A DNA stretch of 64,000 bases. Origin: an uncultured Desulfobacteraceae bacterium (GTDB taxonomy: Bacteria > Desulfobacterota > DSM-4660 > Desulfatiglandales > B25-G16). Shown here piece after piece: positions 14,089 to 35,737 of this stretch. The notes beneath the pieces are model-generated. The model saw only the letters and a list, made by a program, of their open reading frames with translations. It was not told the origin of the DNA and ran no database searches. The stretch covers positions 6,219 to 70,218 of the forward strand of contig CAZSWT010000003.1 in NCBI GenBank assembly GCA_964611035.1. Direction: 5' to 3'. Position 1 is the stretch's first letter. Every line of letters begins with the position of its first letter. A program made the position numbers and the translations under genes.

Positions 14089-14814
14089 ATGAGTGCAGAT
14101 AAAAATACATCAAAGAATCTTCGAAAGCCAAAGTTGAAAACTACCCTTGCATCGTCGGGCCTACTCCTCCCCGAACTCTCTGTTCTCGTATCTGATTCAG
14201 AAAGAGATGCCGCCTATGACCGCTTAAGGGAACTGGCAGTTGATGACAATATTCTTTCCAAACCCTCTATTCAATCCCGGAAAAAAATATGGACAAAACT
14301 ACTTGATCGATACAAATTTGACGCCAAAGATCAGTCCTTTCAACTTTGGTGGAGCTTAATTCCTGAAAGCGAGAGTTATGATTTAGCACAACTCGCCATC
14401 TTACGCTGGGCTCAATCTGACCTCCTGCTCAGATTTTTGTGGAGAGAAATTTACCTTCCAAGAAAAAACATGGATTCTTCTATTCAATCTGAAGATATAA
14501 TAGGTTTTATTCATGAAATGAAGGGAACGCTTATACCTAAACAGTTCTTTTTGGGGCGTTCTCGTGAAGTTCAAGTAAGTATTGCCCAGCATTTCCTGTT
14601 GGTCCTGAGGGAATGTGGAGCAGCTAAAGGAAAAAAGAATAAGGTGTTTGTCACCATTCCGGTTGGAGAAAATGCATCTCGTTATGCAGTTCATCTCGCC
14701 AGACAAGAATGTCCTGGCTCTCATGAGATTCTTAACCATTGGGCTTTGAGATGGTGGGGAGGCTATTCTTCGAAAGCTGATGAGATTCTCAGACAGATTG
14801 AATCTTATCGTTAA
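14089..14814 (+). CDS. brxA: BREX protein BrxA (DUF1819-like)
   Basis: 241 aa, first gene of the canonical type 1 BREX order. ..DNILSKPSIQSRKKIWTKLLDRY.. resembles the BrxA helical core. Confidence 0.8.
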   Translation: MSADKNTSKNLRKPKLKTTLASSGLLLPELSVLVSDSERDAAYDRLRELAVDDNILSKPSIQSRKKIWTKLLDRYKFDAKDQSFQLWWSLIPESESYDLAQLAILRWAQSDLLLRFLWREIYLPRKNMDSSIQSEDIIGFIHEMKGTLIPKQFFLGRSREVQVSIAQHFLLVLRECGAAKGKKNKVFVTIPVGENASRYAVHLARQECPGSHEILNHWALRWWGGYSSKADEILRQIESYR

Positions 14815-14848
14815 GTCACACTCTTTGAGATTTTGCTAAAGGTGATTT

Positions 14849-15394
14849 ATGTCCGAAAGGTCCCTTCAAGAATTGGTAAATGACACGGTGAATGCTTGCC
14901 GAAACCCTGTCAGTTCCGATTTCGATCCTTCAGCTGTTGTTGTATGCCCCCCCAATTGGATTCACGTACTCGAACAAAGGGTGTTGGCAGAGCTTCAGCC
15001 CGAGATACATAATGAAGATTGTGTTGTCATTTCTGCCGAAGGCTTGATGCTTCAGTTCTGGGAAGATGCCGCATCCAAAGGAGATAAGATTGAAGATCTG
15101 TCCCCACGAAATATGCGTCGTTTTATGGATTATGAAGAGCATGAATACCTTGGACGGCTTTTTACGGCTATTTTAAATGCCTTCGAAAAGCATCCTAATC
15201 TTAAAACCTGTCTCATAACCGGCCTTTGGATATTCTATCCATCCGTCCATACATCCACAATTCTTTCTGACCTAAAAAACCGCAATTTAAAAGGTCAGGT
15301 CATTTTCCTTTACCCCGGGGTTGATCAGGATGGTATCTATCTAAAACTATTGGGACTTGATGAAGGTTTCGGCTACAAGGCACGGAGGATTTAA
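14849..15394 (+). CDS. brxB: BREX protein BrxB (DUF1788-like)
   Basis: 181 aa, second position in the operon. The C-terminal ..FLYPGVDQDG..LKLLGL....GYKARRI matches the remembered BrxB ending (..YPG..G..L.LFG...YRA). Confidence 0.8.
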   Translation: MSERSLQELVNDTVNACRNPVSSDFDPSAVVVCPPNWIHVLEQRVLAELQPEIHNEDCVVISAEGLMLQFWEDAASKGDKIEDLSPRNMRRFMDYEEHEYLGRLFTAILNAFEKHPNLKTCLITGLWIFYPSVHTSTILSDLKNRNLKGQVIFLYPGVDQDGIYLKLLGLDEGFGYKARRI

Positions 15395-15395
15395 T

Positions 15396-22100: not shown

Positions 22101-23452
22101 CGCTGAGGAGCTGCTATTTTTCTAAAATACAGGATTCCGAGGTCATTGCAACAGCCTTGCATACAATAGAAGCTGTTTGCGAAAAATTGTTGATAAATGC
22201 TTACAGCCTCGACGAGGAAGATACTGCTGCGGTTATGGCCGAAACTGGAGAACCCTCAGGGTGGTTTCCATTGATTAGAGGTTACGATACTATACCAGAA
22301 GTCCCGCAGGGGATTTTCAATTTACCCGAGGAGATAATGAACCATTTTGAGAGTCAAAAAAGAGAGAATCTCTCCCATGATGAACTGGATACGATTAAAC
22401 TGCGTCTAAAGGTTCTATATGAAGCAGGGCCAGGTTCAAAAGCTGAAGATGAAAAGAATTTGGAATCCTTTGGAGATGATGATAAAAAAAACTTTGATAA
22501 AGGAGCACGTATACCTATCCCTGCTGATACCTTTATTGAAGAGCTTTCCCATAAGCTCAAAATACACCCGATATCTATCTATTGGCTCCTTAAAGAAATG
22601 CGTGAAAAAGAAGATCTTGTATGTCCGTCGGAATTAAAACTGTATGCTGAGGACTATGTAAGCGTCATGATTATCCATATGCTGGGTTACCAGTGGCCAA
22701 AGCAAGTTGAAGCAGGTGAACCTCTGCCCGATTGGGCCGATGACGACGGGATTATTCCGCTTACCGATGGATTGGGAGAAACAACTTTATTGGATCGGAT
22801 AAGAAAACGTTTTGGTGCGGATTTTAGGGAAGAAAAAGAAGCATCCATAGAGTCTGAGTTTTATAATATTGTTGGGAAATCTCTGGAACGGTGGCTGGAG
22901 GAAGACTTGTTTGCTCGGCATGTGAAGCAGTTTAAGAATCGGCCCATTGCCTGGCATATTGTTAGTGATCCTTCTGTGGTTAACCATGAGACAGGGCAAA
23001 GCGGAAAGGGGAAAAGGAAAGGTGGCAAGAAAAAACATAAACCCGCTTTTTCTGTGATGATTCATTATCACCGTTTTGTGGATGGAGATAAAGGATATGG
23101 GAAGCTGTTGCGCCTGAAAAACAAATACCTTGAAAAACTTATGTCCCAGACACGATCAGAATTGGAATCCCTACGCGGCAGAGGAGATGACCCTAAAACC
23201 TTTGATCGTATAGCTGAATTAGATCGAAAATTGGTTGAATTAGAGGATTTCAGGGAGAGATTGGAGCGGATTCAGGAGGGTAAGGACCCTGAATCAAGTA
23301 TATTTGTACGGTGGAAAAGCACTGAGGAACAGCCCCAGGGCTGGAGGCCGGACATAAACGATGGTGTAAAAATAAATATCGCACCATGGGAACGCCTTGG
23401 GATGTTTCCTGTTAAAAAAATTGTCGGAGAAGTCGAAAGGGCGCCTGTGTAA
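19157..23452 (+). pseudogene. pglX: BREX N6-adenine DNA methyltransferase PglX, split by one in-frame TAG
   Basis: ORFs 19157..21328 (723 aa, with LMDPALGSGHF and YTNPPYMG methyltransferase motifs) and 21380..23452 (690 aa, with IPQAPFSYWL and DINDGVKINIAPW PglX-type motifs) are in the same frame. They are separated only by TAG (21326-21328) plus 17 sense codons. ATGA overlap with brxC. Confidence 0.85.
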
Positions 23453-23465
23453 TATAGGACATAGA

Positions 23466-23531
23466 TTTACACAGATTTGCACAGATAACAAAAAAGAAAA
23501 ATCCGTGTTCATCTGTGTTTCATCAGTGTCC
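23466..23531. repeat. cacagat/atctgtg repeat element in the pglX-pglZ spacer
   Basis: tttacacagatttgcacagata (23466-23487) and atccgtgttcatctgtgtttcatcagtgtcc (23501-23531). acacagat (23470-23477) is the reverse complement of atctgtgt (23511-23518). From memory this resembles an extragenic motif (translating as ICVNLC) seen in other bacteria. Confidence 0.4.
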
Positions 23532-23548
23532 TCAAAAACCTAAATCAT

Positions 23549-26212
23549 ATGAATAAATCAGCCATAGAAAAATGGTTAATAGATGAATTTTCTAAACGTT
23601 TTCAGTACAAGGTAAGCGAATACCTTGCTACGCTCATCTGGTTTGACCCGAATCGGTATTGGCTCTCATCAATACCATGGCTGGTAGGCAGGTCGGCCAA
23701 TTGGACATTTTCATTGGAAGAAGAGAACAAAGTAGCGATGAAGTTGGTTGCAGTCGGTTCTGATATACCTGAGGGAAAAGGCCAAAGTCCCCTTAAAATC
23801 CGTCTTTCTATCCTCACAGATCGAAACTCTTATACTGATCAGAACGGTTTGGTAGATTTTAAACAGATTTCGCGTTGGATTATTTATTACCCTTATCCAG
23901 TTGAATGGCTCAATGAAGAGACCCGGCCTAAAAAGAAGCCTGCCATGTCATGGCTAATGCCTTTTTGCGAGGCGGGCCTGGAATGGGGTCGAAGAGGGGG
24001 CGACGAAGAGAAATTGCCTGCCTTTTTGCGCGCCCACAGCCTGGATCTCACCAAAGACAAAAAGCAACTGACGGAATTATACCACCTCACCAAGACCGAC
24101 CGTTCGGCATCCCCTATTTCTCGTCTTGTTGTCCAAAACCTGGATAAGCCAGTTGAGTTCTGGGAGGGGAAGTCATGGGATTTGAATAAAGTCCGGAATG
24201 AACTGGTGGGGGATCTGGGCAGACAAACAGAGGAGTTATTGGTAGATCCTGAAGCCACTGTAACGTTGTTACACGAGCGAGGTGTTTTGGATGATTTCTT
24301 TGCTCGGTTGGAGAGCTATCTTGGAAAGACATGGTATTCTGACAGCGTAATAGCAAACCCCGCAGGTTTCAGCCGGGATCTTGTAAGGCATGTGGCATTA
24401 TCCACAACATGGAAGCTTACAGGCTATGATACAGCGTTCCCTTTCAGCCCGGAGCTACCACCCCAATATAAGACTGACCATTGTAAGGAAACCATTCTTG
24501 ACTGGCTGAAAATACCGGAAGTTGGTGAGGCATATGTTAAAAAATGCCAAAGCCTGGAAAAGGAAGGTCTCAATCTTATCGGAAATGTAGATACCAAGAT
24601 AAATGGACATGTCTTTCCACATATTATCTTGAAACAATGGCATGAGGTAAAGCAGAGACTTGAAAGTGCTGCCGGTACCTCAGTGAATAATATTCGATCT
24701 GTCCTGAAAGATATCCATATTGAAGACTATGACAAGGTGTGGGATCGGCTCATGCCAGGAGAGCTGGGCTGGCATTGGCTTTCTTCACTTAAGGGGATAG
24801 AAAAAAGGATTGTTGACGGAGAGTCCTGGTTGATCAAGTCTGATGCTGATGATCTGGAAGGGTGCATTACACACTTTACCGATTCAGAGAATGGATGGTG
24901 GAGGATTGATGAAATTTTCAGAAAGCTCCTGGTCCTTGCAGTGGATGATCCCGATAGTGATTTAATAAAATCTCTGGCTTTTCCATTGTACAATTCTTGG
25001 ATTGCGGCAGCCGGGCAGCATTTTACAAAAGCGCTCATTAAAAAAACCGACCTGCAATCGCTGAAGAAAATTCCCTTCATTACAAAGGCCGCTGAAACAG
25101 TCTGGTCACTGCCTGATGGAAATAAACGGAAGGCTATAATCATTACGGACGCCTTACGCTATGATTTAGCCATGGACGTTAGCAACTACTTGGAAAAGTC
25201 GGGATTTAAGGTAGATATGAAACCCTGGCTTGCGGATCTCCCCTCAAAAACCGAGGTAGGAATGAGCAGGTTGCTTCCCGATTGCGATCTCGCAATGCGA
25301 CTTAAGAGCAAGAAAATTGAGATTATCCATAATGGGAAAAATTTTGGGGTGAAGGGCAACCGGGTCGAATTTATAAAGGAAAAATTAGGGGAGGATTTAA
25401 CTACACTTGAGATGAAAGATGTAAGCAAAGCCAATCTCAAAGACATAAAATCAAAGGTCCTGGCGGTATTTAGCCGTGATATAGATGCTGAGGGAGAGGC
25501 CAAGGGACTGGGCTTTTTTAAGGACATTGAAAAGGAAATAACTGAAATTGTCCAAAAGGTTCAAGTGCTTGCCCGATGCGGATACCAGGAAGTGCATATC
25601 ATAACTGACCATGGCTTTTTGCTTTCTTCGTCGGATGGGCTGGTAAAGTGGGAAAGCCCCCAAGGTTCGGATGCATGCGGGCGCCGTTTTGCCATGATTC
25701 CCAAGAATATCGGGACTGATTTACCGGCAATCCCCTCCCCATGGAATGATGACCATTGGCTGGCATTGCCGCCTGCTGGTACAGTATTTAAGGCCAGTGG
25801 TCAGACTGAATACCTCCATGGCGGAGCATCATTTCAGGAAATCGTTATTCCTCAAATCTGTGCTGAGGTGCAGGAGCAAGCTGTTCGTGTTACACTGACC
25901 ATGATAGTGGAGAAGGACGTTATTGAGTCCGGCATAGTAAAGATTGATTTAAAAGGCGAAAGCCCAGTCGATCAATTACCGCTCTCCTTCATGCCCACAG
26001 TGGTGTTGTCCAGATCCGGTTATTTAGTAGCAGAGCGGAAAGGTAAGGTTGTTTCTAAAACCAAGAATTTTGAGTTAGGGGTAGGAGATCAACTGAAATT
26101 AACCCTCTTTCTGGATCGAGGCCTTAAACAGGGGGAGGATGTAGATATAATTGCGAGAGATGATAAGGAATTACTAACAACCAAAACATTAAAGGTGGTC
26201 CGAGATGTCTAA
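23549..26212 (+). CDS. pglZ: BREX alkaline-phosphatase-superfamily protein PglZ
   Basis: 887 aa, fifth position in the operon. PglZ-domain core ..AIIITDALRYDL.. and ..IITDHGF... Confidence 0.9.
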   Translation: MNKSAIEKWLIDEFSKRFQYKVSEYLATLIWFDPNRYWLSSIPWLVGRSANWTFSLEEENKVAMKLVAVGSDIPEGKGQSPLKIRLSILTDRNSYTDQNGLVDFKQISRWIIYYPYPVEWLNEETRPKKKPAMSWLMPFCEAGLEWGRRGGDEEKLPAFLRAHSLDLTKDKKQLTELYHLTKTDRSASPISRLVVQNLDKPVEFWEGKSWDLNKVRNELVGDLGRQTEELLVDPEATVTLLHERGVLDDFFARLESYLGKTWYSDSVIANPAGFSRDLVRHVALSTTWKLTGYDTAFPFSPELPPQYKTDHCKETILDWLKIPEVGEAYVKKCQSLEKEGLNLIGNVDTKINGHVFPHIILKQWHEVKQRLESAAGTSVNNIRSVLKDIHIEDYDKVWDRLMPGELGWHWLSSLKGIEKRIVDGESWLIKSDADDLEGCITHFTDSENGWWRIDEIFRKLLVLAVDDPDSDLIKSLAFPLYNSWIAAAGQHFTKALIKKTDLQSLKKIPFITKAAETVWSLPDGNKRKAIIITDALRYDLAMDVSNYLEKSGFKVDMKPWLADLPSKTEVGMSRLLPDCDLAMRLKSKKIEIIHNGKNFGVKGNRVEFIKEKLGEDLTTLEMKDVSKANLKDIKSKVLAVFSRDIDAEGEAKGLGFFKDIEKEITEIVQKVQVLARCGYQEVHIITDHGFLLSSSDGLVKWESPQGSDACGRRFAMIPKNIGTDLPAIPSPWNDDHWLALPPAGTVFKASGQTEYLHGGASFQEIVIPQICAEVQEQAVRVTLTMIVEKDVIESGIVKIDLKGESPVDQLPLSFMPTVVLSRSGYLVAERKGKVVSKTKNFELGVGDQLKLTLFLDRGLKQGEDVDIIARDDKELLTTKTLKVVRDV

Positions 26213-28292
26213 CGAGGAAAAAGAAAACACATCTTTTCTTTCAATTCCTGACTCGCAACCAGATGAATTGGACAGCAAAGTTAGTGAACTCTTCCCGGGA
26301 GTTACGGTGCGAAAGGACCTTGTCAGGAGGATGCGCAGCGCCTACAGTGTGCCTACTTTTGTGATTGAGTTTTTACTCGGAAGGTACTGTTCTGATCCTG
26401 ATGATGATGTCGTGCGCGAGGGAATGGAATATGTGAGGCAAACTCTTTCTCATAAATATGCCAAGCCTGATGAGAGAGAATTGATCAAAGCGCGGATTGA
26501 GCAGCAGCGCCGATATGAACTCATTGAAAAGGTGGGCGTTCGGTTGGTTGAAGAAGATAACCAGTATTGGGCTGAACTAAAAAACATCGACATAAAATAC
26601 GTCAGGATTGACTCATCTGAGATCAGAAAACATGAAAGGCTGCTAACTGGAGGTCTCTGGGCGGAAGTTGAAATTGAGTATGATGATAGCTTTCAATTCA
26701 AGGGCAAAACGCGCCCTTTTATAATCCGAGAGCTACGCCCCATCCAGGTTTCGAACCTTGAATTGGATAATTTCCGTCAAAATCGCACAAAGTTTACAAC
26801 GGAGGAATGGCTTAACTTTCTCATACGAAGCCTCGGCTTTAGAGAAGACCATCCTTATTTCACACAAAGACGAAAATTGCTTCATGTGGCCCGGTTGATA
26901 CCCTTAGTGGAAAAAAACTACAACCTGGTTGAATTGGGGCCAAGGGGCACGGGCAAGAGTTTTGTTTACCAACAGGTCAGTCCCTATTCGCATCTTATTT
27001 CAGGTGGACAGACTACAGCAGCGCAGATGTTCGTTAATCTGAACACAGGCCAAAAAGGACTTGTTGCCCTTTGGGATGTTGTGGCTTTTGATGAGATGCC
27101 AAGGGGAGGATTTGAAGATAAGAAGGTCGTAGATATCTGTAAAAACTATATGGAGGATGGGCAGTTTAGCCGTGGAAGAGAGATCATAGCAGCTGAAGGG
27201 TCAGTGGTGTTTGTGGGGAATATAGATGGTGAAATTGAAACCATTGTTCGGACCAGCCATCTTTTTTATCCCATGCCAAAGCAGATGGACCTTGCTTTCT
27301 TTGATCGTATCCACTCTTACCTTCCGGGGTGGGAGTTCGAAAAGACTGGGGATGAATATTACACGTCTCACTTAGGATTGGTATCGGATTTTCTTGCAGA
27401 GGTATTAACCAAATTACGAAAAGATAGCTATACACATCGGCCTGAAGAACTGTTCCGTTTTGGGAGCCACCTTTCTGGTAGGGACCAAAAGGCGGTTCGA
27501 AAGACCGTTTCAGGCCTGATCAAACTGCTGCACCCTTATGGCGAAGTATCCAAAGATGAACTTTCAGGATACATTGAATTTGCCATGGAGATGAGACGAA
27601 GGGTAAAAGAACAGCTCAAGAAAATGGGTGGCATGGAATACTGGGATGTGAATTTTTCTTACATAGACAAAGAAACAGTTCAGGAGAGTTTTGTCCAGTT
27701 ACCTGAAACTGGCGGCGGGCAGATTATTCCCGCAGAAACCATGTCACCTGGAACCGTTTATAGCATTGGACTCGATGCGGAGGATAAAAAGATTGCCCTT
27801 TTCCTCATACAAACTCAGGCAAACAAAGGGTCAGGTCGTATCATCCCCCTCGGCAGTTTGAGTTCACGCATGAAAGAGGCAATCAAGGTAGCAGATGCCT
27901 ACTTGAAAGCAAATATCAAGAATTTTGGAATTGAAAAGGACTTAAAGAGCTACGACTTTTCAATTCAAGCCTTAAATCTGAGCCAGGCAAAAGAGGGCAC
28001 GGAGACTGCTGTGGCCTTTTATGTTTCTATGGTATCAGCTATCTTGGAAAAACCTGTAAAGGAACAGACGGTTATATTAGGGGAAATGAGTGTCGGGGGC
28101 ATCTTAATGAGGGTGAGCAATTTAGTTGAGCGAATGCAACTGGCATTGGATTCCGGTGCCAAAAGAATCCTTTTGCCGTCTGAGAACAAACGTGATCTTC
28201 CTGATGTGCCTGATACCCTGCTCAACAAAATTCAGCCTGTATTCTATACGGACCCTACTAATGCAGCCATCAGGGCTATGGGTTTGGAATAG
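26205..28292 (+). CDS. brxL: BREX Lon-like protease BrxL
   Basis: 695 aa. 8-nt overlap with pglZ. P-loop GPRGTGKS and a C-terminal Lon-protease-like domain. Last gene of the type 1 order. Confidence 0.9.
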   Translation: MSNEEKENTSFLSIPDSQPDELDSKVSELFPGVTVRKDLVRRMRSAYSVPTFVIEFLLGRYCSDPDDDVVREGMEYVRQTLSHKYAKPDERELIKARIEQQRRYELIEKVGVRLVEEDNQYWAELKNIDIKYVRIDSSEIRKHERLLTGGLWAEVEIEYDDSFQFKGKTRPFIIRELRPIQVSNLELDNFRQNRTKFTTEEWLNFLIRSLGFREDHPYFTQRRKLLHVARLIPLVEKNYNLVELGPRGTGKSFVYQQVSPYSHLISGGQTTAAQMFVNLNTGQKGLVALWDVVAFDEMPRGGFEDKKVVDICKNYMEDGQFSRGREIIAAEGSVVFVGNIDGEIETIVRTSHLFYPMPKQMDLAFFDRIHSYLPGWEFEKTGDEYYTSHLGLVSDFLAEVLTKLRKDSYTHRPEELFRFGSHLSGRDQKAVRKTVSGLIKLLHPYGEVSKDELSGYIEFAMEMRRRVKEQLKKMGGMEYWDVNFSYIDKETVQESFVQLPETGGGQIIPAETMSPGTVYSIGLDAEDKKIALFLIQTQANKGSGRIIPLGSLSSRMKEAIKVADAYLKANIKNFGIEKDLKSYDFSIQALNLSQAKEGTETAVAFYVSMVSAILEKPVKEQTVILGEMSVGGILMRVSNLVERMQLALDSGAKRILLPSENKRDLPDVPDTLLNKIQPVFYTDPTNAAIRAMGLE

Positions 28293-28404
28293 TGTGATTT
28301 GTATAGCCCCCGGCCAATTGCCTAAGCTGTTTCGGCAAGGGTGCCGAAAGGAAAGATGATGTAAAAGAATAACAAGTTCGGATGAATGATATAAGGAGAG
28401 AAAT

Positions 28405-29463
28405 ATGAAGAAAAGAGTGGCTAGGTCAAATGTGAAGTTTAACCCGGTCTTAAGCTCTGATTCGGCAAAAAAGGCTAGATTGGATTCATTTGCAAGCCCA
28501 AAGCATCCCAAATCGATTTGTGTCGTTAATTATAAAGGGGGAGTAGGCAAAACGACGATTACGTGTTTATTGGGCTATTATATTAGCCAACTTGGTGTAA
28601 GAGTGAAAAGGGGAAAAGGAAGTTTAAAAAGAGGTAGAAAGGTTCTTCTGCTCGATATTGACCCGCAATGTAGCTTGTCTTTGGCTGTTGGTTTCGATCC
28701 TGAACAGGTTAATAAGACGGATTTTACTATGTATAATTTGGTTAGGCCTTCGAAGTGGTCAAAAATTACCAAAACCAAATTCAGTCAGTACATTCAGAAG
28801 GTTCCCGATTCGCTAGCTCCAAAGGATTTATATATTATTCCCGGTTCATTTGATGTTGATGATCTTGACATGGAGATTGCAAAAAGCATCGCAATTGATG
28901 GAGAAAGAAGGAAGGATGAGTTATTTCTATACTGCAAGCAAATGCTTAACGGATTTCAAGATTATGATTTTGTGATTGTTGATTGCCCTCCAAACAAAAT
29001 GTTCCTTACGCAAGCAATGCTTAGGGCGTCTACTTATTATCTGCCTGTAACTATCCCCGACCAAATATCTATCTATGGGATGCCGCGATTACTGAGATGG
29101 GTTAGAAACATCCCAAAAGGTGAAAGACCACTTATGCTTGGCTATGTCATGAATGCCATAAATCGCACTGGCGGCCCACCAGGTGGTAAAGTATATAGCC
29201 AACAAATAGGGGAAAGAGATTTAGAAAAGAGTATAAGAAATGATCTAATGCCGATTGAAAGGAAAATTTTCGGCACAAATCCGATTGTGGGACAAATACC
29301 CAGATTGGATAGAATTGCGAAATTTCTTTCAGAAAGGGGAAGTAAGTTTACCAGATTTGAATTTTCTGAGAGAACTTCTGGGCAAGCTACAATTGAGGAA
29401 TGCGTTACCGAAATAGTCAAAACAATTTTTGAAAGGATAAAAAAGTACAATGCCGAAACATGA
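28405..29463 (+). CDS. ParA/Soj-family ATPase with atypical insertions
   Basis: 352 aa. AAGGAG SD. Deviant Walker A KGGVGKTT (aa 44-51) and Walker B VIVDCPP. It has a basic N-terminal extension of about 37 aa and a 14-aa VRVKRGKGSLKRGR insert before LLLDIDPQ. Confidence 0.8.
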   Translation: MKKRVARSNVKFNPVLSSDSAKKARLDSFASPKHPKSICVVNYKGGVGKTTITCLLGYYISQLGVRVKRGKGSLKRGRKVLLLDIDPQCSLSLAVGFDPEQVNKTDFTMYNLVRPSKWSKITKTKFSQYIQKVPDSLAPKDLYIIPGSFDVDDLDMEIAKSIAIDGERRKDELFLYCKQMLNGFQDYDFVIVDCPPNKMFLTQAMLRASTYYLPVTIPDQISIYGMPRLLRWVRNIPKGERPLMLGYVMNAINRTGGPPGGKVYSQQIGERDLEKSIRNDLMPIERKIFGTNPIVGQIPRLDRIAKFLSERGSKFTRFEFSERTSGQATIEECVTEIVKTIFERIKKYNAET

Positions 29464-29854
29464 AATAATACATAAGGCCGGTCAACCTATTACCGAGGAA
29501 ATAAGGTGGATAGTTGATAGATATTTTTATTTAAAAGAGATCGAAAAGCTCGAAAGATTAGGAGGTCGAATTTTGATTTCTATTGCAACACCTTATAAGA
29601 GTAAGAAGCCTAAAGGAATTACTATCGACGAAACATTTGTCGACAATCTTAAATCGAATAGAAATGATGTTGTTGAATTGAGAAATATTTTGGATGGATT
29701 AACAATAAAACAGTTAAAAGAGGCTTGCAGCTTAATTAAGCACCCGGTGCGATCGAATGCCACATCCGAAGAAATTAAAAGAGAACTTATTAGGAGCCTG
29801 CAAGCAGAGGATTTTTGGAGTCGAATTTCTCACAATAATAAAGAAAAATTATAA
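29450..29854 (+). CDS. small hypothetical protein with HeH/SAP-like C-terminal motif
   Basis: 134 aa. Overlaps the ParA-like gene by 14 nt. LDGLTIKQLKEACSLIK...SEEIKRELIRSL weakly resembles helix-extended-helix DNA-binding motifs. Confidence 0.5.
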   Translation: MPKHEIIHKAGQPITEEIRWIVDRYFYLKEIEKLERLGGRILISIATPYKSKKPKGITIDETFVDNLKSNRNDVVELRNILDGLTIKQLKEACSLIKHPVRSNATSEEIKRELIRSLQAEDFWSRISHNNKEKL

Positions 29855-30049
29855 TAATGTGTTTCAGATTGCCAAATCTTTCATTTAGACAAATTATAAA
29901 ATAAACGAGGAGGCCCTTAAAATTTTAAATAACTTAACATAGCGAGTCATAATCCGCTAAAAAGGGTATCTATATTACCCCTTATAAGTGTTATGGGTTC
30001 TGAAAGAATTTAAAAGTGGGCGCTATTACCAAAGAAAGGAGCAAGGAAC

Positions 30050-30319
30050 ATGAACAAAAGGGATTTAGTTAACGAGGTAGCAAAGGTCGTAAATACAAAA
30101 AAAGAGGCCAAGGTAGCAGTGGATTGTATTTTTTCAACCATTACCAAAGCATTAAAAAAGAAGGATCCGGTTACACTGATTGGTTTCGGAACCTTTAAAG
30201 TGGCACAAAGGAATGCCAGGAAAGGAAGAAATCCACAGACAGGACAAGAAATGACGATCAAGGCAAAGAAGGTCCCCAAGTTTGTAGCTGGGAAAGCCTT
30301 AAAGGATGCTGTAAGTTAA
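30050..30319 (+). CDS. hup: DNA-binding protein HU
   Basis: 89 aa. MNKRDLVNEVA..., the GFGTF..R.AR.GRNPQTG arm and a ..KAGKALKDAV end are a classic HU signature. GGAG SD. Confidence 0.9.
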   Translation: MNKRDLVNEVAKVVNTKKEAKVAVDCIFSTITKALKKKDPVTLIGFGTFKVAQRNARKGRNPQTGQEMTIKAKKVPKFVAGKALKDAVS

Positions 30320-30607
30320 TCATTATTAAAGGAGGATTGTAGTAATCAGGAAGGGAACATGGCCTCATATGGGCTTTGATATTTCTATCATATCCAAACT
30401 CTTGTAGTGTTGCACTTGTGAGTTGAATTCAGTCCTCATTAGTTGAAGATGCTGAGGTAACTATTCCCAAAATTTTGTCTTTGGCTTAAACTTGTGTTTA
30501 GTATAATATATCATCATTAGCCACAGATTTAGAATTGATATTAAATTAAAGCATGTAGCACGCTTCCCGTGGTTTGAAATGGTCATATAAGAATTCGACA
30601 GGTTCCT

Positions 30608-33325
30608 ATGACATCGATACCTGAATTTCAAAAAGCCCTAAAAAAGAATACCACTACGTTGGGAGCTCGGTGGGTGAAGGCTGACTTCCACGTTCATTAC
30701 CCAGGTTCGTCGGATTATGAGTACAAAGAATTGGACGCCGTGGAACGTCTAGGCAAGGAACTCGATACTGAAAATTATCGCTTTGTGGTGATTCTGAAGC
30801 ATCAAGAGTTTCCAACCAGAGCCGAGCTATATGAATTAGGCAAATACTGCCCTAAGACTATTTTAATCCCGGGAGCTGAAATAAACGTCTTTGTGGAAGC
30901 CATGTTCATGAAGGTTTCCAAGGATCACTATTTCCATTGCGTACTGGCGGTTAATCCTGACTCAGATGGAGACTACGGCTATATCCTTCATCTAGCTCAA
31001 GATAAATTTTCCTATAAATCAGGTGACTACCCATCGGGTTTTCATTCGAGCATTCTTGATCTCGGCAAGTTCTTCCGAGATCAGGGCGCCCTTTTTCTCC
31101 CCGCTCACCTTCATCAAGCGAAGGGTCCCCACAAATCAAAAAGTATCGATGACATATATGACGATGATGCCTTTCTCAGTTTTATCGAGGACGGGGCGTT
31201 TTCCGCCCTTGAAGTTAGACAGAGGTCAACTGCAGCATTCTTCGCTGGGGGTCGGCAGACTGAAAATGGACGGGCCATTCCAAAGGCTGTATGCGTACAG
31301 TCAAGCGATGCCCACAGTTACATGCATATCAAAGAGCGACAACGATGCTCATGGATTCAAGTCGAGCGTCCAACGTTTAGTGAATTTGAAGCATCTCTGG
31401 TATTCCCGCATCGTCTTTCCCTGGACCAACCATCCGAGCCTAAGCAGCGTATACTCGGTCTTCATATCATAGGAGCTTTTTTCCCTGAGTTATGGATCAG
31501 CTTCAACCCTTGCATGAATTCCTTGATTGGATGCAAAGGCACAGGCAAGACCTCAGTATTAGAGTGCCTTCGATTTTTGTTCGGCACCGCGGTGCCGAAG
31601 GAACGCTTCGAGGGGGTAGCGCGTCATATAGAGCATATTCTAGGACCTAGCGGCATAGTTGAGTGTCTTGTACAACGTGAGGATGAGAAGCGCTTTGTCT
31701 TGTCACGCCGAGCAGATTCTCCACAGCGTTTGAATGTTACCAGCGAGGGCGGTCTATCCCAAGACGCGACCAAAATGGAAACTTATTTTGACGTGTCGAT
31801 ACTGGGATGGCATGAGATTGAGGCCGTTGCTGATGATGCGTCCGCTCGAATACAACTTATCGACGGTATAAAGGGTGCCCAAATAATCCGTCAGCACTAT
31901 TCTGCTATTGAAAAATACATTCAACAAGCGCGAGATGATCTCCCAGTTTTACAGCAACGCCTCCGACGCTTGGATGAGGCACTGAAGGAGCTGTGGGAGC
32001 TACGCAGGAAGCGTGAGACGCTTACGAAACTGGAAAAGGCTGAGCTAGTAGCACTGCAGAATCAGTATGAGTGGTATCTCAAAGCTGAGGAAAAGTTACG
32101 AGGCCACTCAAAAAGACTTCAAAAACATCGGAAAAATGTGATTAATCTCCTACCCTTTGACCTCGGTGGTTCACTAATTGAAGATCTAGGAAGCCCGATA
32201 CCACCGGAAGTCCAACCCGGAATCGACAGGGCCACGAATGCTCTCATCGAATTGGCGAAAAGCGACACCGAACAAAGCGAGACCTTACAAGAAAGAGGTT
32301 CCGGGGTCAACGCTACTATCGAAAGTGCGATCGGTGAGGTTGTGCAACATTTCACGGTATTTCGAGATGAGGTCTACAACCCAAAAGTTCAGCAATTGCC
32401 TCCCGAGGAACGAGACATTTTAACTCGTCAAATCCAAATACTGGAGGAGACACGATCCCTCCCCCAGATGGAGGAAGATTGCAATAGCTTGCACTCAGAG
32501 GTTGTGAAACTTGCCTCAGTGATTGAAGCGATTTGTACAAACGTTTGCAAAGAACGTGATGAAATATGCCTTATCAGGGAGAAAGTAATCGCCGAACTGA
32601 ATGAGGATCTGGACAGTGTACACCTTACTTTCCAACGTTGCGGTAACAAATTACGGTTGGATTTGTACCGGAGCAAGTATGCAAAAGAGAGTGGAGAATT
32701 CATCAACTTCTTGCAAGGGTACGGACGCTCGGAATCATACGAGAATTTTCGTGAGGTTTTCAGGAGTCTTCGCGATATGGACGTCGACGCAAAGGCATGG
32801 GAGGTGAACGAAGTGATGTGGGATGTAAAGTTCGTGGAATTCCTTGACATTGTGGACGATGACGATGTCGAGATTTCACTTGAAGTCGGGAGTGCGGGCT
32901 TCGTCCCAATCCAGAACCTGTCGGCGGGACAACGATGCACCGCAGTGTTTCCACTATTGCTACGTAATGCTCGCGGGCCTTTGGTGATCGATCAACCCGA
33001 GGATAATCTCGACAATCGGCACATTGCGGATACGATCTCGGTCGACCTCCTGAACCGTAAATTACGGCAGCAGTATATTCTCACGTCCCACAACGCGAAT
33101 CTTGTGGTACTTACGGACGCCAATTTGATATTCCACATGGATTCGGATGGTCAGCGCGGGTGGATCGAAACTGCAGGATTCCTTGCGTGTCCTGAAAGTG
33201 ACATCCGAGGCCCAGTGCTTGAAGTTCTAGATGGAGGTGAGGCTGCGCTTGAAGCTCGACGGCGGAAGTACGGTTCGGTTGATACCACCAAACGCTCGGG
33301 TGATTATGTATCGATAAAAAGTTAA
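30608..33325 (+). CDS. PHP phosphoesterase domain fused to Rad50/SbcC-like ABC ATPase (Ppl-like)
   Basis: 905 aa. PHP His/Asp motifs ADFHVHYPGSSD (aa 25-36), LPAHLH (164-169), SSDAHS (232-237). Walker A GCKGTGKTS (308-316). Helical stretch of about 250 aa with a Pro/Gly loop (514-538). ABC signature LSAGQR (771-776), Walker B LVIDQPEDNLD (792-802), H-loop TSHN (826-829). Confidence 0.8.
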   Translation: MTSIPEFQKALKKNTTTLGARWVKADFHVHYPGSSDYEYKELDAVERLGKELDTENYRFVVILKHQEFPTRAELYELGKYCPKTILIPGAEINVFVEAMFMKVSKDHYFHCVLAVNPDSDGDYGYILHLAQDKFSYKSGDYPSGFHSSILDLGKFFRDQGALFLPAHLHQAKGPHKSKSIDDIYDDDAFLSFIEDGAFSALEVRQRSTAAFFAGGRQTENGRAIPKAVCVQSSDAHSYMHIKERQRCSWIQVERPTFSEFEASLVFPHRLSLDQPSEPKQRILGLHIIGAFFPELWISFNPCMNSLIGCKGTGKTSVLECLRFLFGTAVPKERFEGVARHIEHILGPSGIVECLVQREDEKRFVLSRRADSPQRLNVTSEGGLSQDATKMETYFDVSILGWHEIEAVADDASARIQLIDGIKGAQIIRQHYSAIEKYIQQARDDLPVLQQRLRRLDEALKELWELRRKRETLTKLEKAELVALQNQYEWYLKAEEKLRGHSKRLQKHRKNVINLLPFDLGGSLIEDLGSPIPPEVQPGIDRATNALIELAKSDTEQSETLQERGSGVNATIESAIGEVVQHFTVFRDEVYNPKVQQLPPEERDILTRQIQILEETRSLPQMEEDCNSLHSEVVKLASVIEAICTNVCKERDEICLIREKVIAELNEDLDSVHLTFQRCGNKLRLDLYRSKYAKESGEFINFLQGYGRSESYENFREVFRSLRDMDVDAKAWEVNEVMWDVKFVEFLDIVDDDDVEISLEVGSAGFVPIQNLSAGQRCTAVFPLLLRNARGPLVIDQPEDNLDNRHIADTISVDLLNRKLRQQYILTSHNANLVVLTDANLIFHMDSDGQRGWIETAGFLACPESDIRGPVLEVLDGGEAALEARRRKYGSVDTTKRSGDYVSIKS

Positions 33326-33711
33326 CTACTGAAGGCGTCAGCCAATAAGGGATGTTATAGCTGCTGAACAGGGCGTGAATAACCAACTCGTAATTTAGGT
33401 AACACTGTTGACTATCGTGACTAATGTTTAATGACATATGAAAATTCTGATATAACTACCTGCGCTACTGCTATATATCCCTAATTATTACAATCTTAAG
33501 AATCCTTTGATATTCACTCCAAATCCCAAATTTAGAGTTTAGGCTTTTCACGAAAACGGCCTCCAACAAGGTAGATATTCAGATCGAATCCAAACAACAA
33601 GGAATCGCATGTCAGTCTTATTCCTGATTATCCCATATTCTCTGTGAAAATATCCCAATCCGTAAATCCACTTTCTCGATACCTGCTATCCTCTGCATTC
33701 GCCTTAATACC

Positions 33712-33740
33712 TTGACAAAATGATGTGCTGAAAGTAATTT
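33712..33740 (+). promoter_or_regulatory. candidate sigma70-type promoter for the IHF-like gene
   Basis: TTGACA (33712-33717), 17-nt spacer, TAATTT (33735-33740), 48 nt before the ATG. Confidence 0.3.
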
Positions 33741-33787
33741 GGCTCAGTGATAACAACTTGAAAACTTACCCCATAGAATAACCAGCC

Positions 33788-34072
33788 ATGACCCTCACCA
33801 AAGCAGATATTGTCGATACTATTTACAACCAATTAGATGTCCCTAAAACCAGATCCACACAGGTGATTGAATCCCTTATAGAAATTATCAAAGAAACCCT
33901 GGAGAATGGTGAGGATGTCTTGATCAGTGGATTTGGAAAATTCTGTGTCAAAGAAAAGATGAAAAGGAAAGGGAGAGATCCTCAGACCGGGAATGATTTG
34001 ATGCTGGGTGAGAGAAAGGTGGTAACTTTCAAGTGTTCTGGAAGATTAAAGAATAAGATCAATGGAGTTTAG
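33788..34072 (+). CDS. ihfA: integration host factor alpha-like (HU/IHF family)
   Basis: 94 aa. MTLTKADIVDTIY.., ..ISGFGKF.VKEK..R.GRDPQTG.., the IHF-alpha style N-terminus and beta-arm. Confidence 0.75.
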   Translation: MTLTKADIVDTIYNQLDVPKTRSTQVIESLIEIIKETLENGEDVLISGFGKFCVKEKMKRKGRDPQTGNDLMLGERKVVTFKCSGRLKNKINGV

Positions 34073-34102: not shown

Positions 34103-34441
34103 ATGAGTTTGTCAGAAAAAGACTTAAACCTCGGAGATCACATCTATGTAAGACGCCGAGTCTATTCTCATCATGGAATATACGCCAGAGATGGAAATGT
34201 TATTCATTATACCGGGGAAGAAAAAGAGAAAAAAGACCCGCTGATCAGGGAAACAGACATAGAAGATTTTCTCAAAGGCGGAAAGCTGAGAAGGCGTGAT
34301 TATAAAAAGCGTTTGCCTCCTTCTGAGTCCCTCAGCCTTGCAAAAAAGCATTTGTCTAGTAAGGGTCTTTCTCTTTTGACGCTTGGATTTGGACCTCTTT
34401 GGGAACTTCAGACGTCTGAAGAATTTCCCTCGTGGGTTTAG
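34103..34441 (+). pseudogene. NC-domain (LRAT/NlpC-P60-like) gene, 3-prime truncated
   Basis: The N-terminal GDHIYVRRRVYSHHGIYARDGNVIHY matches the His-containing half of NC/LRAT domains. The ORF contains no Cys at all, so the NCEHF-type catalytic motif is absent. The family-like sequence stops where the convergent parB stop lies (34356-34358). Confidence 0.5.
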
Positions 34442-34985
34442 TCAGCCTGTCCAGCCCCAGGATTTGGCTAATATAACTTTGTGATTTATTCAATAATTTT
34501 GCTATGTTTACTTGAGAGTAACCTAATCTTTCTATTAAAGCTTTGATTCCGGCGGACTCCTCAAGAGGTGTGATATCTTCTCTCTGAAGATTTAAAATGA
34601 GCTGCAAGAGGAGTCTTTTCTTATCGTCTACCTCTTTTATGATGCACGGGAGCCTCTCCATACCCACCATTTTGGCTGCCTTGTATCTTCTTTCCCCACT
34701 TATGATCTTGAAAGAATCTTCCTTCTCGTCATACTCAACTGTAAGGGGATCTATAATCCCCCCAACTTCTTTTATTGACTCAGCCAGAGATTCCAATGTT
34801 TCCTTTACAAATATCTTCCTTGGCTGGTTGGGATCAGGATTAATCCTTTCAATATCGATGAACTTGGCTTCTCGTAGAGGACTTGTATTAACTCTCTCAC
34901 CCTTTTTGTCCTTTTCTCCATCAACTGCGATTGGGCTGAGAAAAATAGACCTTTCCTCTGCATTCTGCAAATAATCTTTAGACAT
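34356..34985 (-). CDS. parB: ParB/Spo0J-like partition protein (short form)
   Basis: The track ORF starts at 35042. The likely ATG is 34985 (GGGAGG upstream; ATGTCTAA overlap with the parA stop). ParB N-terminal box ..IISGERRYKAAK.. and an HTH ..IAKLLNKSQSYISQ... Confidence 0.8.
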   Translation of the reverse strand: MSKDYLQNAEERSIFLSPIAVDGEKDKKGERVNTSPLREAKFIDIERINPDPNQPRKIFVKETLESLAESIKEVGGIIDPLTVEYDEKEDSFKIISGERRYKAAKMVGMERLPCIIKEVDDKKRLLLQLILNLQREDITPLEESAGIKALIERLGYSQVNIAKLLNKSQSYISQILGLDRLTKPTREILQTSEVPKEVQIQASKEKDPY

Positions 34986-35737
34986 TGAGAACCTCCCTGC
35001 CGATTTGTCTGAAGGTTTGAGCTTGCTCGCTCTTCGGAGCAAGGTATGTAATCGGTTTCCCCAGTGTCACTGCTTCCACATACCTAACTGAATCTTTCAA
35101 GACCTGCTTAAAGATCCTCTCTCCAAGATGTCCTTCAATCATAGCCCTAAAGTCCTGTTCGATTCTTCTTCTCCCGTCATAGCGATTGATGATGTAGCCA
35201 AGAATGGTAAGGTTGGGATTGGCCCTTTTTCTTGCCTTCTCGATAACTCCGCGCACATAACCGTGTACCTTTTACGTTGTAATCCTGAGCTTCCAGGGGG
35301 ATGATTACTCCTTCCGAGGCGGTGAGCACAGACCATGTAGCAAGTCCCAGGTTAGGAGGTGCATCCAGCAAGATCATGTCGTATTCTCCCTGGATGTCTT
35401 TAAGCCTGTCTGCAAGGTAGTGATGGGAGTCCCGCTCGGAGAGAAGCTCGGTCTCTATTTTTCCAAGACTGGGGTTGGCTGGAACTATATCGATGTTTTC
35501 AAATTCCGTCTTTACGATCGCCTCCTTAATTGACTTTTTATCATTCAGGAGGGCATCTGTAATCACACATGGAAGGTCGTGGATGTTGGGAAGAAAGGAA
35601 GAGCTCAAGGAGCCCTGCTGATCCATATCCACAAGCAATATTTTTTTACCCATCTCGGCCAATGCCCCTCCAAGGCAGAAGCAAATTGTAGTTTTCCCCA
35701 CTCCTCCTTTATTGTTGCAAATTCCTATCCTTTTCAT
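34978..35737 (-). pseudogene. parA: ParA/Soj ATPase disrupted by a frameshift
   Basis: The N-part 35177..35737 (KGGVGKTT, LLVDMDQQ, ILLDAPP) loses homology after ..EAQDYNVKG. The C-part 34978..35256 (..NLTILGYIINRYDGRR..) continues in another frame. The shift maps to about 35257-35276 (gtaaaagg run). Confidence 0.8.

What the first reader, a model, noticed from the sequence alone, without database searches (positions are those of the whole stretch)
30050..34072. HU and IHF-alpha-like genes bracket the PHP-ATPase gene
SEEN: hup (30050-30319), the PHP-ATPase and an ihfA-like gene (33788-34072) are all on the + strand. A sampled hup line is host-like in G+C (about 40% by hand count), while the middle gene is richer. 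A TTGACA-17-TAATTT promoter-like site precedes the ihfA-like gene. KNOWN: HU and IHF are DNA-bending nucleoid proteins, and IHF is a cofactor for several site-specific DNA transactions. INFERENCE, two readings. (a) The PHP-ATPase inserted between two neighbouring host nucleoid-protein genes, so this is an insertion hotspot. (b) The bending proteins are cargo or partners that shape the DNA substrate of an SMC-like nuclease, giving a three-gene module. I cannot distinguish these from the window.
Basis: inference. Interest (0 to 1): 0.55.

Follow-up and report, generated by a model that had tools for sequence, protein, structure and literature searches.

The report
Defence-gene hotspot anchored by HU and IHF
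The HU and IHF-like genes are conserved landmarks of a highly variable anti-phage defence island in an uncultured sulfate-reducer relative, and the PHP-ATPase between them is one interchangeable stand-alone defence gene, not their functional partner.

Summary
HU (30050-30319), a 905-aa PHP-ATPase (30608-33325) and an IHF-alpha-like gene (33788-34072) all lie on the + strand. G+C is 0.40, 0.48 and 0.39. A TTGACA-17-TAATTT site sits at 33712-33740.

The middle gene has a PHP-fold nuclease domain fused to an SMC/Rad50-like ATPase. It is a distant full-length relative of the single-gene defence proteins Ppl and TrlF, and it lies just downstream of a type 1 BREX system.

Reading (b), a three-gene module, is not supported. 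No HU-family gene lies near any of 23 other full-length PHP-ATPase loci, or near about 140 ATPase-only relatives.

Reading (a), an insertion hotspot, is supported and sharpened. In related metagenomic genomes (about 90% nt identity) the same HU and IHF-LRAT genes bracket different cargo: a DUF6946 gene, or a Vsr-Dcm-restriction cassette. Sequence left of HU also varies (Hma, kinase, PDC systems). One relative lacks the whole 21.8 kb from 11940 to 33704, HU included.

HU is therefore a recombination junction inside a defence island, and IHF-LRAT is the fixed point. This is an ordinary core-anchored defence hotspot in a new lineage. Paralogue counts in the full genome could not be obtained.

The parts
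11940..30030 (+). Variable slot A, left of HU. Contains orf207 (12888-13511); type 1 BREX, made up of brxA 14089-14814, brxB 14849-15394, brxC 15357-19160, pglX in two ORFs 19157-21328 and 21380-23452, pglZ 23549-26212 and brxL 26205-28292; a ParA-like ATPase (28405-29463); and orf134 (29450-29854).
   Evidence: Relative L185 matches window 2598-11939 and then jumps to 33705-34142, so this stretch is absent there. PADLOC hits to BrxA/B/C, PglX, PglZ and BrxL. Relatives carry other defence cargo in this position.
30031..30407 (+). HU anchor segment: ribosome-binding site, HU gene (30050-30319, 89 aa) and 87 nt downstream with a terminator-like hairpin (30361-30375).
   Evidence: This is the only sequence left of the cargo that is shared with L177/L178 (91%, 30031-30320), L187-194 (84%, 30031-30407) and L199 (90%, 30031-30320). 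Pfam Bac_DNA_binding. dN/dS 0.04-0.20. Hairpin.
30408..33475 (+). Variable slot B: the PHP-ATPase cassette, G+C 0.467, including its own upstream region with a perfect TATAAT at about 30502-30507.
   Evidence: The limits are set by where homology to L187-type relatives stops and resumes (alignments). The same slot holds DUF6946 in L177/L178 and Vsr-Dcm-REase_II in L187-193. TATAAT read.
30608..33325 (+). PHP-ATPase gene, 905 aa. N-terminal PHP nuclease/phosphoesterase domain (about residues 19-270); SMC/Rad50-type ABC ATPase head split by a coiled coil (about residues 424-667); Walker A GCKGTGKT 308-315; signature LSAGQR 771-776; Walker B/D-loop VIDQPEDNLD 793-802.
   Evidence: Pfam and PADLOC Ppl E=2.8e-30. 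NCBIfam TrlF 285 bits, Ppl 138 bits. AlphaFold models and Foldseek searches. Invariant residues.
33476..33787 (+). Conserved non-coding region upstream of the IHF-like gene, including the TTGACA-17-TAATTT site at 33712-33740.
   Evidence: 89-91% identical in L181/182 and L187-191, which have different genes upstream. L185 shares only 33705 onward. Pattern count is 2 against 0.04 expected. No Rfam match and no conserved ORF.
33788..34072 (+). IHF-alpha-like gene, 94 aa. It is the fixed point of the locus.
   Evidence: Present in all six lineages compared. A smooth series of homologues from 94% to 72% identity. dN/dS 0.10-0.28, like neighbouring core genes. NCBIfam IHF-alpha 101.9 bits against a cut-off of 111.
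34103..34441 (+). LRAT/NlpC-like gene that follows the IHF-like gene in four of the five other lineages (absent in L185 and L197). Here it is 3'-truncated to 112 aa, against 141 aa in relatives.
   Evidence: Homology to relatives ends at 34357-34375. The window copy lacks the NCEHF catalytic motif present in L177.
34356..35737 (-). Start of variable slot C: parB (34356-35042) and a frameshifted parA (35177-35737 plus 34978-35256). This is a decayed partition module that abuts the truncated LRAT gene.
   Evidence: Pfam ParB_N/HTH_ParB and AAA_31/CbiA in two overlapping frames. The same split appears in other assemblies. Only 33-39% identical to the intact parAB of relative L182.

Best explanation
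The window comes from an uncultured Desulfatiglandales-like bacterium (Desulfobacterota). The IHF-alpha-like gene, usually followed by an LRAT-like gene, is a conserved chromosomal gene of this lineage. The DNA around it is a hypervariable defence island.

HU is a second small conserved gene inside that island. HU and IHF-LRAT are kept under purifying selection, so they stay about 90% identical between relatives while everything between and beside them turns over. They therefore mark three variable slots: left of HU, between HU and IHF, and right of LRAT.

In this genome slot A holds a type 1 BREX system plus a ParA-like pair. Slot B holds a self-contained cassette (30408-33475) encoding a PHP-nuclease/SMC-like ATPase of the Ppl/TrlF superfamily. 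That kind of protein is a single-gene anti-phage system elsewhere.

Shown: the anatomy, the alternative cargoes, the mosaic pattern, and the lack of HU/IHF linkage in other PHP-ATPase loci. Inferred: cargo is exchanged by homologous recombination in the conserved anchors after transfer between related strains. Also inferred: the PHP-ATPase acts alone as a DNA-directed defence nuclease, with ATP-driven SMC-like DNA engagement and PHP-domain cleavage, and needs neither HU nor IHF as a dedicated partner.
For: **Same anchors, different cargo**
- L177/L178 (IHF 93% aa) have HU-DUF6946-IHF-LRAT.
- L187-193 (HU 90% aa) have HU-[Vsr, Dcm, HATPase_c_3/REase_II]-IHF-LRAT.
- In both, nucleotide homology to the window is limited to the HU segment and the IHF-LRAT segment.

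**Independent assortment of the blocks on either side of HU**
- L178 and L187 share kinase-56aa-HU (90.6%) but differ in slot B.
- L177 and L178 are 99% identical from 42 nt upstream of HU through HAD, but differ further left.
- HU and IHF give discordant synonymous distances between the window and L187: dS 0.74 against 0.24.

**An unoccupied relative**
- L185 shares the Wzc-Wzi flank at 90-95% nt, then goes almost directly (about 160 bp of its own sequence) to the IHF promoter.
- It lacks window 11940-33704.

**Cargo is defence**
- Window: BREX.
- Relatives: HmaC, a PD-T4-6-like kinase, REase_II, PDC-S06, PDC-M24B and a DruA-like protein.

**The PHP-ATPase is a stand-alone gene**
- There are 23 full-length loci from other organisms: 18, plus L167, L170, L195, L206 and L207.
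- These loci have no HU-family ORF and no recurrent neighbour.
- Ppl is described as a single-gene system (PMC11482910).

**Anchors are functional genes**
- dN/dS is 0.04-0.28, like neighbouring core genes at 0.19-0.23.

**The pattern is known**
- Defence hotspots between conserved core genes are described in P. aeruginosa (PMC10250203).
Against: - No genome with HU directly next to IHF (an empty slot B) was found.
- The outer right boundary of the variable zone was not found. Every lineage differs right of LRAT, so the locus is not a textbook two-core-flank hotspot.
- HU is absent at this locus in three lineages and present elsewhere in another. Its status as a 'host core gene' is not established.
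- No integrase, repeat or att-like site marks the slot boundaries, so the exchange mechanism is inferred only.
- All comparison genomes are metagenomic contigs. Only six lineages were sampled.
- Anti-phage activity of this PHP-ATPase is untested. It scores below the NCBIfam cut-offs for both TrlF and Ppl.
Confidence: 0.75

Rival explanations
1. Three-gene functional module. HU and the IHF-like protein bend or mark the DNA substrate of the SMC-like PHP nuclease. The three genes are selected to stay together.
For: All three genes lie on the same strand within 4 kb. SMC-like complexes and IHF/HU all act on DNA architecture (established knowledge). The arrangement is stable in this population, across 23 contigs.
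Against: There is no HU-family ORF within up to 10 kb of 23 other full-length PHP-ATPase genes, including relatives at 73%, 65% and 64% identity, or of about 140 ATPase-only relatives. The same HU and IHF genes bracket unrelated cargo in relatives. The genes are separated by 288-nt and 462-nt spacers. A terminator-like hairpin follows HU, and the other two genes have promoter-like sites of their own.
Confidence: 0.04
2. HU and IHF-LRAT are not passive landmarks. They are backbone genes of the island itself: accessory nucleoid-protein paralogues kept because they serve the island. Possible roles are organising or silencing acquired DNA, or promoting the recombination that swaps cassettes.
For: - Both are tiny islands of conservation while DNA on both sides of each changes in every lineage.
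- HU is missing with the island in L185.
- An 89%-identical HU lies at a lepA-hemN-rnd locus in contigs from four of the five samples that hold the window's population. This hints at two copies per genome.
- The IHF-like protein scores below the IHF-alpha equivalog cut-off and is not in the usual pheST context.
- A 310-nt non-coding region upstream of it is conserved about as well as the coding sequence.
Against: The IHF-like gene is present in every lineage examined, whether or not defence cargo is next to it; L185 and L197 are examples. It shows a smooth identity series, typical of vertical descent. No recombinase is linked to either gene. Copy number in one genome was not measured. The second HU may belong to a co-occurring relative.
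Confidence: 0.13
3. The stretch from the ParA-like gene to parA' (28405-35737) is the remnant of an integrated plasmid or conjugative element. That element brought its own partition genes, nucleoid proteins and the PHP-ATPase.
For: A ParA-like gene lies left of HU. parB and a frameshifted parA lie right of LRAT. Plasmids often encode HU-like proteins (established knowledge). Ppl and TrlF genes are frequent on plasmids, next to recombinases.
Against: IHF-LRAT and HU are found at about 90% identity in relatives without these par genes. The parB segment begins where the LRAT gene is truncated, so it arrived separately, after IHF-LRAT was in place. No replication, relaxase or integrase gene lies in 28-36 kb.
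Confidence: 0.05

Closest known systems
Ppl (single-gene anti-phage system; PHP domain plus ATPase) and the NCBIfam 'TrlF family AAA-like ATPase'
   Same: Same architecture over the full length: an N-terminal PHP domain and an SMC/ABC-type ATPase with a coiled-coil insert. tblastn covers 96% of the protein against annotated Ppl (Pantoea plasmid) and TrlF (Listeria and Staphylococcus plasmids). PADLOC Ppl E=2.8e-30. Stand-alone gene in defence or mobile contexts.
   Different: Only 21-22% identical. It scores below both curated cut-offs: TrlF 285 against 350 bits, Ppl 138 against 1000 bits. It belongs to a separate, well-populated clade of about 890-aa proteins found in Planctomycetota, Nitrospirota, Acidobacteriota and other phyla. 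Defence activity is untested.
SbcCD / Mre11-Rad50 and other SMC-like nuclease machines (Wadjet JetC, MukB, RecF)
   Same: The ATPase head and coiled coil match these by fold. An ATPase head is paired with a metal-dependent nuclease.
   Different: The nuclease is a PHP domain fused in the same chain, not a separate Mre11/SbcD or Toprim subunit. The coiled coil is short, about 240 residues. No partner genes are conserved.
Core defence hotspots flanked by conserved genes (P. aeruginosa cDHS1/2, PMC10250203; E. coli defence islands, PMC10121019)
   Same: Conserved marker genes have different defence systems between them in related genomes. Cargo is mixed and no single mobile-element type is present.
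   Different: The anchors are two very small nucleoid-protein genes. One of them (HU) lies inside the variable zone and is itself dispensable at the locus. The outer flanks also vary. Only six lineages from metagenomes were sampled.
Nucleoid-associated proteins carried by plasmids and genomic islands (HU-, H-NS- and IHF-like 'stealth' or backbone proteins; from general knowledge)
   Same: An HU-family gene embedded in horizontally acquired DNA, next to partition-like genes.
   Different: Here the HU and IHF-like genes are shared by relatives that have entirely different acquired DNA. They were therefore not brought in by the present cargo.

Membership tests
Ppl / TrlF-type PHP-ATPase defence proteins | N-terminal PHP (polymerase and histidinol phosphatase) fold with its metal-binding His/Asp/Glu set | tested here: met
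   The model of residues 1-285 (pLDDT 86) matches the PHP phosphoesterase TM0559, endonuclease Q, the RNase AM PHP domain and the Pol III alpha PHP domain. H28, H30, D36, H65, E91, H110, H167, H169, D234 and H236 are invariant or nearly invariant.
Ppl / TrlF-type PHP-ATPase defence proteins | C-terminal SMC/ABC-type ATPase with Walker A, signature motif, Walker B and a coiled-coil insert, in the same polypeptide | tested here: met
   Pfam SMC_N, AAA_23 and AAA_21. The full-length model (pLDDT 83) matches MukB, Smc, JetC, Rad50 and RecF heads. Motifs are invariant.
Ppl / TrlF-type PHP-ATPase defence proteins | Score above the curated family threshold (NCBIfam NF042955 Ppl, NF045780 TrlF) | tested here: not met
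   Ppl 138 bits against a cut-off of 1000. TrlF 285 bits against a cut-off of 350. It is therefore a relative in the same superfamily, not a member of either curated family.
Ppl / TrlF-type PHP-ATPase defence proteins | Acts as a single gene, with no conserved partner | tested here: met
   No recurrent neighbour among 23 full-length loci. Ppl is described as a single-gene system (PMC11482910).
Ppl / TrlF-type PHP-ATPase defence proteins | Protects against phage | not testable with these tools
   Only the context is known: adjacent to BREX here and in a retron/RM/AlbA_2 island for the 65% relative.
HU (hup) | Bac_DNA_binding fold of about 90 aa, with a beta-arm carrying R-x-G-R-N-P-x-T-G | tested here: met
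   Pfam E=1.6e-31 over residues 1-88. The sequence ARKGRNPQTG is present. The best NCBIfam models are HU-beta and HU-alpha, but below their enterobacterial equivalog cut-offs.
IHF alpha (ihfA/himA) | Scores as an IHF-alpha equivalog; has an IHF-beta partner; usual pheST-ihfA context | tested here: inconclusive
   IHF-alpha is the best model at 101.9 bits, but the cut-off is 111. No IHF-beta gene and no pheST lie in the window. The rest of the genome was not available.
Core-gene-anchored defence hotspot | Anchor genes are conserved between related genomes while the DNA between them differs | tested here: met
   Three different cargoes lie between HU and IHF-LRAT, and at least four lie left of HU.
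Core-gene-anchored defence hotspot | Cargo is enriched in defence systems | tested here: met
   BREX, a Ppl-like gene, REase_II with Dcm and Vsr, HmaC, a PD-T4-6-like kinase, PDC-S06, PDC-M24B and a DruA-like gene. DUF6946 has no PADLOC match.
Core-gene-anchored defence hotspot | Both anchors are core (present at the locus in all genomes) and the outer flanks are syntenic | tested here: not met
   HU is absent at the locus in L185, L181-184 and L197. The sequence right of LRAT differs in every lineage. Only the left flank (Wzc-Wzi) is shared, and only with L185.
   0 of 23 full-length loci and 0 of about 140 ATPase-only loci. An HU HMM was run over 2.16 Mb of flanks, over L167-L196 including the close-relative loci, and two annotated plasmid loci were read.

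The most novel reading that the evidence does not exclude
HU and IHF-LRAT may be dedicated backbone genes of a hypervariable defence island in Desulfatiglandales. On this reading they are accessory nucleoid-protein paralogues (a second HU copy and a non-canonical IHF-alpha-like protein). They persist through every cargo turnover because they organise, silence or help recombine the acquired cassettes. That would make this a nucleoid-protein-scaffolded cassette platform, not a passive hotspot.
Probability: 0.12. Interest if true: 0.6.

Novelty: new member of a known kind. Interest (0 to 1): 0.3.

Why it matters
The result removes a tempting but unsupported idea: that HU and IHF are partners of an SMC-like defence nuclease.

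It gives a practical handle instead. In this uncultured sulfate-reducer lineage, HU and IHF-LRAT can serve as search anchors to harvest defence cargo from metagenomes. The slots already hold BREX, Hma, RM, kinase systems, candidate PDC systems and uncharacterised genes such as DUF6946.

It also places a large, uncharacterised clade of about 890-aa PHP-ATPases, spread over many phyla, next to Ppl and TrlF as likely single-gene defence nucleases.

If the minority reading were true, with nucleoid proteins as island backbone, it would bear on how defence islands are kept together and exchanged.

Tried and rejected
- **Literature on 'TrlF':** the search returned only spectroscopy papers. The origin of the name remains unknown to me.
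- **Exact-protein look-up of the window's HU:** not on record, because the window differs from the JGI contig by two residues in HU.
- **Repeats around the cassette:** one 25-nt direct repeat (30374-30398 and 33505-33529, 72%) sits just outside both slot boundaries. Its exact core is 10 nt. By my own estimate about 7 such matches are expected by chance in this stretch, and the left copy is the T-tail of the HU terminator hairpin. I rejected it as an att site.
- **Junctions of the 21.8-kb island:** the longest shared word across the two junctions is 9 nt.
- **Non-coding RNA:** Rfam found only tRNA-Gly at 57546-57618 at gathering thresholds, and nothing at E<=1 in 29800-34500.
- **Small ORFs in the conserved IHF leader:** none convincing.
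- **Profile search of the whole protein against PDB sequences:** only the Rad50/SMC Walker A region matched. The PHP domain needed a separate domain model.
- **Most loci from the two collection scans:** these turned out to be about 600-aa ATPase-only relatives with different partners. The effective sample for the co-occurrence test is 23 loci, not 160.
- **HU and IHF on viral contigs:** only distant HU relatives (44-56%) and one 73% IHF-like hit. This gives no support for a phage origin.
- **G+C as evidence of foreignness:** rejected as weak. The PHP-ATPase (0.48) is barely above brxC (0.474) and nrdD (0.457).

Full report
**1. What is in the sequence**

- HU (30050-30319, 89 aa) is a clear Bac_DNA_binding protein (E=1.6e-31).
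- The downstream gene (33788-34072, 94 aa) is also in that family. It scores best against IHF-alpha, at 101.9 bits, just under the curated cut-off of 111.
- The middle gene (30608-33325) encodes 905 aa with SMC_N, AAA_23 and AAA_21 matches.

G+C is 0.400 for HU, 0.480 for the PHP-ATPase and 0.389 for the IHF-like gene, against 0.417 for the window. The contrast is weak, though, because BREX genes and nrdD reach 0.45-0.47.

The TTGACA-17-TAATTT site lies at 33712-33740. The exact pattern occurs twice in the window against 0.04 expected. The block is conserved in three relatives. Its second hexamer matches TATAAT at only 3 of 6 positions, and a consensus scan did not list it.

**2. The middle gene**

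PADLOC matches it to Ppl (E=2.8e-30). NCBIfam matches it along its whole length to the TrlF family (285 bits, cut-off 350) and to Ppl (138 bits, cut-off 1000). tblastn covers 96% of it, at 21-22% identity, against genes annotated 'anti-phage protein Ppl' and 'TrlF family AAA-like ATPase' on plasmids.

A full-length AlphaFold model (pLDDT 83) has an ATPase head and coiled coil resembling MukB, Smc, JetC, Rad50 and RecF. A separate model of residues 1-285 (pLDDT 86) matches PHP-family phosphoesterases, endonuclease Q and the RNase AM PHP domain. The PHP metal ligands and the Walker and signature motifs are invariant in 26 homologues.

It is therefore a PHP nuclease fused to an SMC-like ATPase. 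It is a distant relative of Ppl and TrlF but not a member of either curated family. Ppl is reported as an uncharacterised single-gene system (PMC11482910).

The protein belongs to a populous clade of about 890-aa proteins, 47-79% identical to it. Those that carry a source name come from Planctomycetota, Nitrospirales, Vicinamibacterales and Parvibaculaceae.

**3. Surroundings**

The window is a metagenomic contig (JGI Ga0307443_1000035 and near-identical assemblies). Proteins in the same 90% cluster as its PurD are labelled Desulfatiglandales or 'Deltaproteobacteria bacterium'.

Upstream lies a type 1 BREX system: brxA, brxB, brxC, pglX in two ORFs, pglZ and brxL, spanning 14089-28292. Then come a ParA-like ATPase and a 134-aa ORF, and then HU.

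Downstream of the IHF-like gene is an LRAT-like gene, then parB and a frameshifted parA on the other strand, then nrdD.

**4. Test of reading (b), a three-gene module**

I built an HU-family HMM and scanned all six frames of 160 loci (2.16 Mb) around relatives of the PHP-ATPase, taken from genome and metagenome collections. It found none.

Most of those loci turned out to hold about 600-aa ATPase-only relatives with other partners. Only 18 carry the full-length PHP-ATPase. To these I added:
- the closest relatives whose contigs could be read, at 73% (L195), 65% (L167) and 65% (L170) identity;
- the annotated Ppl and TrlF plasmid loci.

None of these 23 loci has an HU or IHF neighbour, and no other neighbour recurs.

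**5. Test of reading (a), a hotspot**

Both small proteins have dense series of homologues at 72-94% identity.

| Lineage | Arrangement at the locus | Homology to window |
|---|---|---|
| L177/L178 (IHF 93% aa) | HU - DUF6946 - IHF - LRAT - HAD | 30031-30320 and 33781-34375 only |
| L187-193 (HU 90% aa) | HU - [Vsr, Dcm, HATPase_c_3 = REase_II] - IHF - LRAT | 30031-30407 and 33476-34357 |
| L181-184 | integrase fragment - 181-aa ORF - IHF - LRAT; no HU | from 33476 |
| L185 | Wzc - Wzi flank (90-95% nt), then about 160 bp, then the IHF promoter; no LRAT, no HU | 2598-11939, then 33705-34142 |
| L197 (2.5-Mb genome CP070704.1) | IHF (76% aa) followed by HAD; no HU, no LRAT | IHF only |

The L187 comparison sets the cassette limits at 30408-33475. 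The L185 comparison shows that window 11940-33704 (21.8 kb, including BREX, HU and the PHP-ATPase) is absent there.

Left of HU the relatives carry HmaC with DUF1156, a PD-T4-6-like kinase, PDC-S06, PDC-M24B, a DruA-like gene and transposases.

**6. Mosaic structure**

- L178 and L187 share kinase-56aa-HU (90.6%) but differ in the slot between HU and IHF.
- L177 and L178 are 99% identical from 42 nt before HU through HAD, but differ further left.
- Between the window and L187, HU has dS 0.74 while IHF has dS 0.24.

HU is thus a recombination junction, and the blocks on its two sides assort independently. Both genes are under purifying selection (dN/dS 0.04-0.28), similar to the Wzc, export and Wzi genes at 0.19-0.23.

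No integrase, att-like repeat or target duplication marks the boundaries. Exchange by homologous recombination in the anchors is an inference.

**7. What does not fit a textbook hotspot**

- HU is not fixed at the locus.
- An HU that is 89% identical in protein (90.7% nt) lies in a different context: lepA, hemN, rnd, aminotransferase fragments, HU, glyoxalase, transposase. Again only the gene itself (30031-30320) is homologous.
- Those contigs come from four of the five JGI samples that hold the window's population. They may represent a second copy in the same genome or a co-occurring relative. I could not decide which.
- The sequence right of LRAT also differs in every lineage.
- In the window the LRAT gene is truncated before its NCEHF motif, exactly where the parB segment begins.
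- Paralogue counts in the full genome could not be obtained.

These points keep alive a minority reading in which HU and IHF-LRAT are backbone genes of the island rather than passive landmarks.

**8. Verdict**

Reading (b) is not supported. Reading (a) is supported with corrections.

The locus is a multi-slot defence island. Its fixed point is the IHF-like gene, in most lineages followed by an LRAT-like gene, and HU is a conserved junction within the island. The PHP-ATPase is one interchangeable, self-contained cassette of the Ppl/TrlF superfamily.

Defence hotspots between conserved genes are well described (PMC10250203; PMC10121019, listed by title and abstract). This is a new member of a known kind, in an uncultured lineage, with the minor curiosity that the anchors are nucleoid-protein genes.

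Noticed in passing
window 34103-34441 (LRAT-like gene); L177 6390-6815: The LRAT/NlpC-like gene that follows the IHF-like gene is 141 aa in relatives and carries the NCEHF catalytic motif. Here it is 112 aa and diverges before that motif, exactly where homology ends (34357-34375) and parB begins. It is probably a truncated pseudogene.
   Followed up: partly
window 34978-35737 (- strand): parA is split into two overlapping frames (186 aa plus 92 aa). The same split appears in independent assemblies of this population. Together with parB it looks like a decaying partition module, only 33-39% identical to the intact chromosomal-type parAB of relative L182.
   Followed up: partly
window 19157-23452: The BREX methyltransferase pglX is encoded as two ORFs in the same frame. 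They are separated by a TAG at 21326-21328, then 51 nt containing an AAGGAG ribosome-binding site, then a GTG start at 21380. It could be a natural split gene or a nonsense mutation.
   Followed up: no
window 13857-13885: A second exact TTGACA-17-TAATTT match lies about 200 nt upstream of brxA. Both matches end in AGTAATTT. Two matches against 0.04 expected suggests a real promoter form in this organism.
   Followed up: no
window 30244-30275, compared with L001: The window and the JGI contig are 99.855% identical over 22.7 kb, but the 33 differences are clustered. Four fall within 32 nt of the 3' part of HU and change two residues. None fall in 20608-30243 or 30276-39199. This suggests short recombination tracts or strain mixing in assembly at conserved segments.
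   Followed up: partly
L199-L205 (HU at L199 7806-8075): An HU 89% identical in protein lies between aminotransferase-IV fragments and a glyoxalase gene, near lepA, hemN and rnd. The contigs come from mostly the same samples as the window's population. It is either a second HU copy in the genome or a co-occurring relative.
   Followed up: partly
L178 6655-9108 and L187 5816-8269: A Ser/Thr kinase with TPR and FHA domains (PD-T4-6/mad6-like), a 56-aa ORF and HU form a block conserved at 90.6% in two relatives. This raises the question of whether HU has a link to that kinase system. The block is absent from the window.
   Followed up: no
window 10604-10717; L178 5720-5824; L179 3108-3197; L185 8360-8608: A stretch of about 100 nt is 84-88% identical to sequences at other positions in relatives. 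In L178 it lies next to a transposase gene. Overlapping short ORFs cover it. It may be a small mobile or repeated element.
   Followed up: no
window 12769-13527 (orf207); L179 3444-4201: The 207-aa ORF at the left end of the island is 90% identical at the nucleotide level, but inverted, to a gene that lies downstream of IHF-LRAT-HAD in relative L179. This is evidence of rearrangement across the IHF gene.
   Followed up: no
L014-L166 (most loci): About 140 relatives of the ATPase part are roughly 600-aa proteins without the PHP domain. In 91 loci they are followed by a conserved protein of about 374 aa, and in 41 loci by a response-regulator-like protein. This appears to be a different multi-gene system sharing the ATPase.
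   Followed up: no
L210 8001-8282 (IMG/VR contig UViG_3300037851_001249): An IHF-like protein 73% identical to the window's lies on a contig classed as viral, in a much more G+C-rich organism. The context was not examined.
   Followed up: no
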